From: the human T2T-CHM13v2.0 reference genome, Homo sapiens
Length of the DNA: 64,000 bases
Direction: 5' to 3' (one strand)
NCBI RefSeq assembly: GCF_009914755.1
Contig: NC_060941.1
Below the pieces are notes generated by a model. The model was not told where the DNA came from. It did no database searches and worked only from the letters and a program-made list of their open reading frames with translations. The translations under genes were made by a program, and so were the position numbers. Of this stretch, positions 40,253 to 40,357 are shown piece by piece (position 1 is the stretch's first letter; the number at the start of each line of letters is the position of its first letter).

Positions 40253-40357
40253 CTAGACTTCGGGCTCCTTGAGGATATTCAGTTTTGTATGTTTGAATAT
40301 CCTCTCACCATGTTCAGCATAAAGTACCATTCTTAATGATTATCCTCAACAAGACAG
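40253..40357 (+). other. SEC14L1: SEC14L1 exon 2 (105-nt 5' UTR exon)
   Basis: Polypyrimidine tract plus aacAG at 40251-40252 (second AG at 40255-40256). Donor CAG|GTAGGC at 40358. Confidence 0.88.
40289..40336 (+). CDS. uORF2 in exon 2 (15 aa, [15 protein letters not shown]; internal in-frame accATG at 40310)
   Basis: ATG at 40289 to TAA at 40334-40336, read directly from the sequence. Confidence 0.55.

What the first reader, a model, noticed from the sequence alone, without database searches (positions are those of the whole stretch)
40271..40304. Perfect 11-bp hairpin in exon 2 holding the uORF2 AUG in its loop
Seen: GAGGATATTCA (40271-40281) is the exact reverse complement of TGAATATCCTC (40294-40304), extendable by a G-U pair. 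The U-rich loop GUUUUGUAUGUU contains the uORF2 AUG (40289), and a second in-frame AUG with better context (accAUG, 40310) sits 5 nt after the stem. A perfect 11-bp stem in a 105-nt non-repeat exon is unlikely by chance. Inference: a structural or protein-binding switch that controls uAUG choice or exon inclusion.
Basis: partly seen in the sequence, partly recalled or inferred. Interest (0 to 1): 0.7.

Follow-up and report, generated by a model that had tools for sequence, protein, structure and literature searches.

The report
Two-way hairpin in SEC14L1 leader exon
A short perfect hairpin in the untranslated second exon of human SEC14L1 is real and has a second, competing pairing partner next to another upstream start codon, but it is weak and nothing yet shows that it regulates the gene.

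Summary
40271-40281 and 40294-40304 are perfectly complementary; with a G-U pair they give 12 bp and -15.4 kcal/mol. AUG 40289 lies in the loop and AUG 40310 lies 5 nt after the stem.

- The 5' arm has a second partner, 40337-40349 (12 of 13 bases). The two helices exclude each other, differ by about 1 kcal/mol, and swap preference with sequence context.
- A third AUG at 40336 overlaps the uORF2 stop (UAAUG). It opens a catalogued Ribo-seq ORF that runs past the SEC14L1 start codon.
- Exon 2 is also joined to exons of an upstream promoter.

Both complements are rare in shuffles (9 of 20,000; 17 of 200,000). Perfect hairpins of this size still occur about once per 21 kb in sampled human DNA.

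The only relative I could reach is a chr11 processed pseudogene. It shows that exon 2 changes at a neutral-like rate and that the arms change no more slowly than the rest of the exon.

My best reading (0.5) is a mutational by-product with little effect on scanning. A two-state switch that sets uAUG choice remains possible (0.3). Orthologue alignments and structure-probing data were out of reach.

The parts
40253..40357 (+). SEC14L1 exon 2, a non-coding leader exon with an alternative acceptor at 40257.
   Evidence: Hub annotation. The chr11 retrocopy joins it without gaps to exons 1 and 3.
40269..40281 (+). 5' arm shared by both helices. Bases 40271-40281 pair with the near arm; bases 40269-40281 pair with the far arm.
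   Evidence: pairs I13 and I10.
40282..40293 (+). U/G-rich loop of the near hairpin. It holds AUG 40289-40291.
40294..40304 (+). 11 of 11 bases are complementary.
   Evidence: I13. The hairpin is -15.4 kcal/mol with z = -4.69.
40337..40349 (+). Far 3' arm (helix B). It is 12 of 13 complementary to 40269-40281. It is also a direct 10-of-11 copy of the near arm.
   Evidence: I10. 17 of 200,000 shuffles of the 53-nt tail give such a complement. The direct repeat goes no further than the 11-mer.
40288..40321 (+). Inner hairpin predicted inside helix B. It pairs AUG 40289 and AUG 40310 with their neighbours.
   Evidence: Minimum-energy structure of exon 2 and of the spliced leader.
40289..40336 (+). 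uORF2: 15 codons from AUG 40289 (weak context) or 8 codons from AUG 40310 (A at -3), ending at stop 40334-40336.
   Evidence: It is not listed under its own AUGs in the ORF tables I read. The same frame is read through from an upstream exon in c17norep170.
40336..40357 (+). First part of the overlapping uORF (GENCODE Ribo-seq ORF c17riboseqorf167). Its AUG at 40336-40338 overlaps the uORF2 stop (UAAUG) and sits at the start of the far arm.
   Evidence: 33 codons across the exon 2/3 junction. (hg38 coordinates match with an offset of 77102393).
41174..41253 (+). Second part of the overlapping uORF, in exon 3. It runs past the SEC14L1 AUG (41204) in another frame and stops at 41251-41253.
38664..38708 (+). 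uORF1 in exon 1 (14 codons). The alternative donor at 38661 removes its AUG.
   Evidence: Sandmann et al. 2023, supplement file 5: 568 P-sites, 81% in frame, HLA and PRM peptides, labelled 'mammalia'.

Best explanation
The inverted repeat is real and would fold in RNA. It is one face of a three-copy 11-13-nt motif in the shared leader exon of SEC14L1.

The 5' arm (40269-40281) can pair in two ways:
- **Helix A:** with the near arm 40294-40304.
- **Helix B:** with the far arm 40337-40349, enclosing an inner hairpin.

I think it is most likely a by-product of mutation in a fast-changing non-coding exon. Local copying of a short segment in inverted and direct orientation would produce it; template switching during replication is one such route.

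In the transcript the near hairpin should form first, because its arm is transcribed first. The mature leader then takes whichever helix its context favours. The scanning 43S complex with eIF4A melts either one, since both are far weaker than hairpins known to stop scanning. The effect on start-codon choice would therefore be small.

On this reading the uORFs carry the leader's translational control:
- uORF1 (AUG 38664), which is translated.
- The overlapping ORF from AUG 40336, which carries ribosomes past the SEC14L1 AUG at 41204.

**Shown:** the repeat, the second partner, the energies, the AUG map, the retrocopy comparison and the catalogue entries.

**Inferred:** the mutational origin, the folding order, the melting by the scanning complex and the small size of the effect.
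For: **Stability**
- The hairpin is only -14.2 to -15.4 kcal/mol.
- 181 loci in the window are at least as stable in 40-nt stretches.
- The whole exon folds no better than its shuffles (z = -1.40; 18 of 200 fold at least as well).

**Background rate**
- Perfect hairpins of 11 bp or more occur at 10 loci in 208,544 nt of sampled human DNA.
- In the window that is about ten times the Markov expectation: 4 loci against 0.36. Mutation makes such repeats without any function being needed.
- A paper reporting that template switching creates and maintains RNA hairpins exists: PMC8794818. I saw the search listing and the start of its abstract only.

**No sign of constraint, from the chr11 processed pseudogene**
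- Exon 2 differs at 10 of 103 non-CpG sites.
- Codon positions 1+2 differ at 44 of 1282 (Fisher p = 0.005). Codon position 3 differs at 45 of 630 (p = 0.42).
- The arms differ at 2 of 22 sites, the rest of the exon at 9 of 83 (p = 1.0).
- Zero changes in 22 arm bases on the human gene's line is expected 33-47% of the time under neutrality.

**No unique structure**
- Across 13 sequence contexts the model favours the near helix in 8 and the far helix in 5.

**No match to anything described**
- Rfam gave 12 weak matches in 38400-41400 and none on exon 2.
- uORF2 starting from its own AUGs is absent from both ORF tables read: 8 of 8 SEC14L1 rows in file 5 are uORF1, and none of the 4 rows in file 2 starts at 40289 or 40310.
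Against: **Both complements are improbable in shuffles**
- The second complement to the same arm arises in 17 of 200,000 shuffles.
- The first arises in 9 of 20,000.
- Together they are hard to put down to chance without a copying event or selection.

**The differences from the retrocopy are not placed at random with respect to folding**
- 11 differences separate the human exon from the retrocopy.
- The exon folds at -21.2 kcal/mol and the retrocopy version at -7.9.
- Only 10 of 3000 random placements of the same base changes weaken the exon that much.
- Only 26 of 3000 reverse placements make the retrocopy version as stable as the exon.
- Selection for structure in the gene could produce this pattern.

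**Pairing is largely kept in helix B**
- One helix-B pair (40290-40319) is U-A in the gene and A-U in the retrocopy.
- 26 of 28 helix-B pairs are kept.
- Neither result is significant: 12% and 21% of random sets do as well.

**Position**
- The far arm starts at the AUG of a replicated Ribo-seq ORF, which is a suggestive place for it.

**Limit of the test**
- The neutral-rate test covers only the tens of millions of years since the retrocopy formed. It has little power for 22 bases.
Confidence: 0.5

Rival explanations
1. **Two-state RNA switch for start-codon choice.**

The 5' arm toggles between two helices:
- **Helix A:** AUG 40289 sits in the loop, and the UAAUG with AUG 40336 is left free.
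- **Helix B:** AUG 40289 and AUG 40310 are paired in an inner hairpin, and the U and G of AUG 40336 sit in the closing helix.

The balance could be set by the exon 1 form, a bound protein, helicase activity or the passage of ribosomes. It would divide ribosomes between two fates:
- The short uORF2, after which they can reinitiate at the SEC14L1 AUG 51 nt downstream.
- The overlapping ORF from 40336, which bypasses that AUG and should also trigger nonsense-mediated decay.
For: - The two helices exclude each other: -20.0 against -21.2 kcal/mol in constrained folds.
- The estimated barrier between them is about 15-16 kcal/mol.
- The preference flips with context. It is 92-93% far helix with long exon 1, and 92% near helix with the short exon 1 that lacks uORF1.
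- The second complement arises in only 17 of 200,000 shuffles.
- AUG 40336 opens a replicated Ribo-seq ORF that overlaps the main start.
- The differences from the retrocopy fall where they matter for folding: 10 of 3000 and 26 of 3000.
- One helix-B pair differs on both sides and still pairs.
Against: - Scanning ribosomes unwind weak helices, and -15 kcal/mol is far below the blocking range I recall.
- The geometry for a downstream hairpin that enhances initiation (about 14 nt after the AUG, recalled) is not met for any of the three AUGs.
- Exon 2 and its arms change at a neutral-like rate.
- The preferences come from a nearest-neighbour model whose error exceeds the 1.2 kcal/mol gap.
- No trigger is known.
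- No initiation at 40289 or 40310 is catalogued.
Confidence: 0.3
2. **The repeated 11-mer matters as a sequence motif, not as a helix.**

Three copies of GAGGATAWTCA, one in the opposite orientation to the other two, lie within 80 bp. They could be binding sites for a DNA-binding factor 1.7 kb downstream of the promoter. They could instead act in the pre-mRNA as splicing enhancer or silencer elements of exon 2. A third option is that the U/G-rich loop is a site for a GU-rich-element protein, with the helix merely displaying it.
For: - The three copies are 10-11 of 11 identical whatever their orientation. A motif cluster predicts this just as an RNA helix does.
- The far copy ends 8 nt from the 5' splice site, and the first copy starts 16 nt after the acceptor.
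- The loop is U/G-rich.
Against: - No motif library for transcription factors or RNA-binding proteins was available, so nothing ties the 11-mer to a known factor.
- RefSeq functional elements listed by the hub stop at 39348.
- The retrocopy differs in all three copies, though a retrocopy is not expected to be constrained.
Confidence: 0.1

Closest known systems
Stable 5'UTR hairpins that impede 43S scanning (Kozak-type steric block; recalled, no paper read here)
   Same: A stem-loop in a capped mRNA leader, upstream of the main AUG and around upstream AUGs.
   Different: It is only -15.4 kcal/mol and starts about 158 nt from the annotated transcript start. The blocking hairpins I recall are about -30 to -60 kcal/mol or lie close to the cap.
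Downstream hairpin that raises initiation at a weak-context AUG (Kozak 1990; recalled)
   Same: A weak-context AUG (40289, U at -3 and U at +4) lies close to a hairpin.
   Different: The AUG lies inside the loop and the 3' arm begins 5 nt after its A. The recalled optimum is a hairpin that starts about 14 nt downstream. The hairpin must already be open when the ribosome reaches the AUG.
Alternative-helix leaders such as bacterial attenuators, where one strand has two exclusive partners and short leader ORFs are translated
   Same: One arm has two mutually exclusive partners of similar predicted energy, interleaved with short ORFs.
   Different: This is a eukaryotic scanning-dependent mRNA. There is no terminator or anti-terminator output, no known trigger, and no evidence of covariation.
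Multi-uORF leaders with an overlapping inhibitory uORF (ATF4/GCN4-type delayed reinitiation; recalled)
   Same: A short, translated first uORF is followed by further uAUGs. The last of these opens an ORF that overlaps the main start codon.
   Different: No stress response of SEC14L1 translation is known to me or was found. An extra short uORF2 ends exactly at the AUG of the overlapping ORF (UAAUG).
Hairpins created by template-switch mutations (Monttinen and Loytynoja 2022, PMC8794818; listing and start of abstract seen)
   Same: It is a perfect stem in otherwise unconstrained sequence. A cluster of three adjacent differences from the retrocopy (40347-40349) is, in the gene's state, the exact reverse complement of 40269-40271.
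   Different: The direction of the changes cannot be set without an outgroup. The two differences in the near hairpin lie on opposite arms, so one event cannot explain both.

Membership tests
Scanning-blocking 5'UTR hairpin | Stability of about -30 kcal/mol or stronger, or a position close to the cap (thresholds recalled). | tested here: not met
   -14.2 to -15.4 kcal/mol. The stem starts about 158 nt into the annotated leader.
Downstream hairpin enhancer of a weak AUG | The hairpin begins about 14 nt downstream of the AUG (recalled). | tested here: not met
   AUG 40289 is in the loop. AUG 40310 lies after the stem. Nothing comparable lies 14 nt after AUG 40336 in the predicted folds.
Two-state (alternative-helix) RNA switch | One strand has two mutually exclusive partners. 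| tested here: met
   40269-40281 pairs with 40294-40304 (11 of 11) or with 40337-40349 (12 of 13).
Two-state (alternative-helix) RNA switch | The alternatives are close in energy and both are populated. | tested here: inconclusive
   - Constrained folds give -20.0 against -21.2 kcal/mol.
- 85 near and 1913 far in 2000 Boltzmann samples of the exon.
- The preference flips with context: 8 near and 5 far of 13 contexts.
- This is a model only, and other parameter sets could not be loaded.
Two-state (alternative-helix) RNA switch | Covariation supports both helices across relatives. | not testable with these tools
   - No vertebrate orthologues can be reached.
- The one retrocopy keeps 26 of 28 helix-B pairs and has one double-sided change. 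21% and 12% of random mutation sets do as well.
- It breaks 2 of 11 helix-A pairs.
Two-state (alternative-helix) RNA switch | A trigger (ligand, protein or ribosome) shifts the balance and changes the output. | not testable with these tools
   This needs probing and reporter experiments.
Curated RNA families (Rfam 15, including IRE and other cis-regulatory hairpins and miRNA precursors) | A covariance-model match. | tested here: not met
   12 matches at E up to 10 in 38400-41400. None overlaps 40253-40357, and the best ones are on the Alu upstream.
Termination-reinitiation at an overlapping stop/start (viral UAAUG type) | The stop codon of the upstream ORF overlaps the next AUG. | tested here: met
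   TAA 40334-40336 and ATG 40336-40338.
Termination-reinitiation at an overlapping stop/start (viral UAAUG type) | An upstream 18S-complementary motif (UGGGA core; recalled). | tested here: not met
   Exon 2 contains no TGGGA, read directly from the sequence.
Inverted repeat derived from a transposon or other repeat | Many related copies in the genome. | tested here: not met
   A whole-genome search with exon 2 gives 2 matches: the exon itself and the chr11 retrocopy. Very old, diverged repeats could escape a 105-nt search.
Hairpin made by a template-switch mutation | A cluster of changes whose derived state is the reverse complement of nearby sequence. | tested here: inconclusive
   The cluster at 40347-40349 fits in the gene's state: 40341-40349 are the exact reverse complement of 40269-40277. 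The direction cannot be set, because no outgroup is available.

The most novel reading that the evidence does not exclude
Exon 2 of SEC14L1 holds a ribosome-coupled two-state element. One 13-nt strand alternates between a near helix and a far helix.

That alternation would decide whether ribosomes leaving the conserved uORF1 take the harmless uORF2, with reinitiation at the SEC14L1 AUG, or the overlapping ORF that starts in the UAAUG and shuts SEC14L1 translation off.

The choice of exon 1 donor, which keeps or removes uORF1, would bias the fold. This would be an attenuator-like logic in a human cellular mRNA.
Probability: 0.12. Interest if true: 0.65.

Novelty: new member of a known kind. Interest (0 to 1): 0.3.

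Why it matters
If the two helices really steer ribosomes between uORF2 and the overlapping ORF, SEC14L1 would be a compact human example of control by alternative RNA helices over uAUG choice. SEC14L1 is a lipid-binding protein; from memory it has been linked to RIG-I signalling and cholinergic transporters. Such a case would be directly testable with a handful of mutants.

If the repeat is a mutational by-product, as I think more likely, the case is a useful caution. Perfect short hairpins in leader exons, even with a second complement, arise in human DNA far more often than shuffling suggests.

The leader map found on the way is useful whichever reading holds. It consists of four upstream AUGs, a UAAUG stop-start overlap, and an alternative donor that deletes uORF1.

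Tried and rejected
**Tested and negative**
- **Known RNA family.** The Rfam scan at E up to 10 found nothing on exon 2.
- **Repeat or transposon origin.** Only 2 genomic matches. Exon 3 likewise gives 2, so there is a single retrocopy.
- **A longer tandem duplication behind the two 3' arms.** The direct repeat stops at the 11-mer. Its local alignment score is reached by 138 of 2000 shuffles.

**Tried, but no answer possible**
- **Setting the direction of the 11 differences between gene and retrocopy.** There is no outgroup. Under neutrality every assignment is about equally likely, so I cannot say whether the perfect stem is ancestral. That is my reasoning, not a computation.
- **Sensitivity to energy parameters.** The four parameter loaders gave identical numbers, so they evidently did not take effect. 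This is not a test.

**Calls that failed or were badly posed**
- The Boltzmann sampling returned no structures, so its '0 of 5000' is invalid. crashed. One search repeated the step correctly.
- The random-mutation control ignored the direction of the base changes. One search replaced it with a type-matched control.
- One search was badly posed: 18,814 papers, and none of the 15 listed holds SEC14L1.

**Literature**
- SEC14L1 + uORF gave 2 papers, unrelated by title and by the start of the abstract.
- SEC14L1 + hairpin + UTR gave 6 papers, none on this by title. I did not read them.

- Paper reading closed. I could not see the supplements of PMC13275300, which may hold more on c17riboseqorf167 and c17norep170. 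I could not read PMC8794818 beyond its listing.

**Not available**
- No orthologues, population variants, structure-probing data, eCLIP data or splice-site scoring could be had.

Full report
**1. The observation**

- The repeat finder on 40150-40460 lists 20 inverted pairs. Eighteen pair the A-run of the upstream Alu tail with the T-run of the acceptor's pyrimidine tract.
  - Pair I13 is 40271-40281 with 40294-40304: 11 nt, 100% complementary, 12 nt apart.
  - Pair I10 is 40269-40281 with 40337-40349: 13 nt, 92% complementary, 55 nt apart.
- With the loop-side G40282-U40293 pair, the near hairpin has 12 bp and a 10-nt loop, at -15.4 kcal/mol.
- ATG 40289 is in the loop. ATG 40310 is in frame, 5 nt after the stem. 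Both end at TAA 40334-40336.

**2. Is it more than chance?**

Against shuffled sequence, yes.
- 9 of 20,000 shuffles of the exon reach a perfect stem of 11 bp or more.
- 0 of 200 shuffles of the local 46 nt fold as well (z = -4.69).
- A first-order Markov model predicts 0.36 such loci per 64 kb; the window has 4.

Against real DNA, much less so.
- I counted 4 loci in the window, 2 in 52,000 nt of the rest of the gene, and 4 in 92,544 nt of unrelated loci that another search had brought in.
- That is 10 in 208,544 nt, about one per 21 kb, or about 0.5% per 105-nt exon.

By free energy the hairpin is ordinary.
- 2.3% of 31,980 forty-nt stretches are at least as stable. These make 181 loci.
- Among stretches of matched G+C content only 4 loci are as stable.
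- The exon as a whole is not unusually structured (z = -1.40; 18 of 200 shuffles fold at least as well).

**3.

- It pairs the 5' arm with the far arm 40337-40349.
- It encloses an inner hairpin (40288-40321) in which both uORF2 AUGs are paired.

The two folds are close in energy.
- Constrained folds give -20.0 kcal/mol for the near helix and -21.2 for the far helix.
- The estimated barrier between them is 15-16 kcal/mol.
- In 2000 Boltzmann samples of the exon, 85 hold the near helix and 1913 hold the far helix.

The preference depends on context. Of 13 contexts, 8 favour the near helix and 5 favour the far helix.
- **Near helix:** every context that includes downstream intron, exons 2+3, and the leader with the short exon 1.
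- **Far helix:** the exon alone, the long-exon-1 leader, and the context with upstream intron only.

The gap of about 1 kcal/mol is smaller than the error of the model. All I can say is that the two helices compete in silico. I tried other parameter sets, but the loaders had no effect.

A complement of 12 of 13 or better to the same arm arises in only 17 of 200,000 shuffles of the 53-nt tail. The two 3' arms are a direct 10-of-11 repeat that extends no further.

**4.

The spliced leader has four upstream AUGs:
- 38664 (uORF1, 14 codons).
- 40289 and 40310 (uORF2, 15 or 8 codons).
- 40336. Its A is the last base of the uORF2 stop (UAAUG). It opens a 33-codon ORF across the exon 2/3 junction, which passes the SEC14L1 AUG (41204) in another frame and stops at 41253.

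I read the supplementary tables of Sandmann et al. 2023 (PMC10032668): files 2 and 5 through term searches, and passages of the main text.
- **uORF1** is listed as translated. It has 568 P-sites with 81% in frame, HLA and PRM peptides, the label 'mammalia', and mouse and rat counterparts. All 8 of 8 SEC14L1 rows of file 5 concern it.
- **File 2** has 4 SEC14L1 rows. Two lie at an upstream promoter outside the window.
- **c17norep170** starts in an upstream exon and reads through exon 2 in the uORF2 frame. Its exon 2 part equals my translation of 40253-40336. It is labelled not replicated, young and de novo.
- **c17riboseqorf167** is the ORF from AUG 40336. It is labelled 'conserved', but the paper itself warns that overlap with a coding sequence constrains such ORFs.
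- **uORF2** from its own AUGs is in neither table. This is weak negative evidence: file 5 is a short, stringent list, and from memory the catalogue behind file 2 starts at 16 residues.

The hg38 coordinates in these tables map to the window with one offset (77102393) at three anchors.

AUG 40336 sits at the start of the far arm. The exon's three AUGs are therefore distributed over the two alternative folds.

**5. The only relative I could reach**

A whole-genome search finds one other copy of exon 2, on chr11.
- It is a processed pseudogene. Exons 1, 2 and 3 align as one ungapped stretch (252 of 283), and all 17 exons follow in order.
- Exon 2 was therefore in a germ-line mRNA when the copy was made.
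- The age is roughly 15-53 million years, depending on the assumed rate. The rates are recalled values.

In exon 2 the copies differ at 11 sites.
- Two break near-helix pairs: 40274 and 40295, on opposite arms.
- Two remove the uORF2 ATGs: 40290 and 40312.
- Three adjacent sites (40347-40349) lie at the outer end of the far arm.
- The ATG at 40336 and the TAA are the same in both copies.
- The retrocopy's hairpin falls to -2.1 kcal/mol and its exon to -7.9 (z = +2.24; 200 of 200 shuffles fold at least as well).

**6. Constraint**

I used the coding exons as a yardstick. The gene's protein is conserved, so differences at codon positions 1 and 2 come mostly from the retrocopy's line alone.
- Non-CpG differences are 44 of 1282 at positions 1+2 and 45 of 630 at position 3. 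Exon 2 has 10 of 103.
- Exon 2 differs from positions 1+2 (Fisher p = 0.005) but not from position 3 (p = 0.42). The gene's exon 2 has therefore been changing at about the neutral rate.
- The arms (2 of 22) do not differ from the rest of the exon (9 of 83; p = 1.0). Under neutrality, no change in 22 bases is expected 33-47% of the time.
- There is no sign of constraint, but the power for the arms alone is low.

**7. A result that points the other way**

The 11 differences are not placed at random with respect to folding.
- I kept the same base changes and placed them at random matching positions. Only 10 of 3000 sets weaken the exon to the retrocopy's level.
- In the reverse experiment only 26 of 3000 sets raise the retrocopy version to the gene's stability.
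- Part of this signal comes from the retrocopy being oddly unstructured, which has no selective explanation. I also chose the statistic after looking at the data.
- In the far-helix fold, 26 of 28 pairs survive in the retrocopy. One pair (40290-40319) differs on both sides and still pairs. Random sets do as well in 21% and 12% of trials.
- The three-base cluster at 40347-40349 is, in the gene's state, the exact reverse complement of 40269-40271. It extends a 9-nt perfect match. This is what a template-switch event would leave, and such events are reported to create RNA hairpins (PMC8794818; listing and start of abstract only). Without an outgroup the direction is open.

**8. Mechanism**

What follows rests on established knowledge of scanning, which I recall and did not read here.
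- A 43S complex unwinds weak helices as it moves.
- An AUG in a loop has no special access.
- Hairpins need roughly -30 kcal/mol or more, or a position near the cap, to hinder scanning.
- A hairpin enhances a weak AUG when it starts about 14 nt downstream of it.

None of these conditions is met here.

I therefore think the most likely reading (0.5) is a structure that mutation made, that folds, and that has little regulatory weight. The uORFs do the work: uORF1 is translated, and the ORF from 40336 diverts ribosomes past the SEC14L1 AUG. By the usual 50-nt rule (an inference), that ORF should also expose the mRNA to nonsense-mediated decay.

The main rival (0.3) is that the two helices form a switch dividing ribosomes between uORF2 and the overlapping ORF.

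A third reading (0.1) is that the 11-mer acts as a protein-binding motif in DNA or pre-mRNA, or that the loop is a site for a GU-rich-element protein. I could not test this.

**9. Known or new**

- Rfam has no match on the exon.
- Searches for SEC14L1 with uORF (2 papers) and with hairpin and UTR (6 papers) gave nothing on this element, judged by title.
- It is an undescribed example of a common kind of feature, a short hairpin in a leader with several uORFs.
- The unusual trait is the second partner at the AUG of an overlapping uORF.
- Orthologue alignments, in-cell probing and a small mutant series would settle it. None was within reach, and paper reading closed.

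Noticed in passing
window 40334-40338, continuing to 41253: The uORF2 stop and a third upstream ATG overlap (TAATG). The ATG opens a 33-codon ORF across the exon 2/3 junction that overlaps the SEC14L1 start codon. It equals GENCODE Ribo-seq ORF c17riboseqorf167 in the supplement of PMC10032668.
   Followed up: yes
window 38661-38669: The alternative exon 1 donor (exon end 38661) is followed by GTATGAGC. The short exon 1 form therefore splices out the ATG of uORF1, which is translated and labelled as conserved in mammals. In the folding model this leader form prefers the near hairpin (92%), while the long form prefers the far helix.
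   Followed up: partly
L005:604-3239 (G000 contig C11, about 44,052,603-44,055,238): This is a processed pseudogene of SEC14L1 covering all 17 exons, at 86.9-97.7% identity per exon. It is probably the one named SEC14L1P1; the name is recalled and its location was not checked. There is only one retrocopy in the assembly.
   Followed up: yes
L005:1136-1144, against window-scale 88895/91034: The retrocopy carries about 6 extra bases exactly at the exon 5/6 junction. This may reflect a different splice choice, or a micro-exon, in the source mRNA.
   Followed up: no
window 40165-40186 and 40226-40252: The poly(A) tail of the sense Alu just upstream is complementary to the pyrimidine tract of the exon 2 acceptor (for example 11 nt perfect, pair I11). 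The two are paired in the pre-mRNA fold. This could mask the acceptor.
   Followed up: no
window 40347-40349: Three adjacent differences separate the gene (CAA) from the retrocopy (TGG). The gene's state extends the complement to 40269-40271. The retrocopy's state makes a local 9-nt palindrome. This looks like a single complex mutation, possibly a template switch, but the direction is unknown.
   Followed up: partly
window 25451-25489 and 12595-12619: These are two other perfect hairpins in non-repeat-looking sequence. One has 13 bp with a 13-nt loop and lies just after the RefSeq enhancer 25396-25445. The other has 11 bp with a 3-nt loop.
   Followed up: no
L038:7443-7484 (window-scale about 91443, SEC14L1 intron): A G+C-rich perfect 12-bp hairpin with an 18-nt loop lies in an intron of SEC14L1.
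   Followed up: no
window 40253 and 40257: Tandem acceptors lie 4 nt apart (cag|CTAG|AC). Both are used in RefSeq transcripts according to the hub table. Using the downstream one does not change the predicted helix preference.
   Followed up: partly
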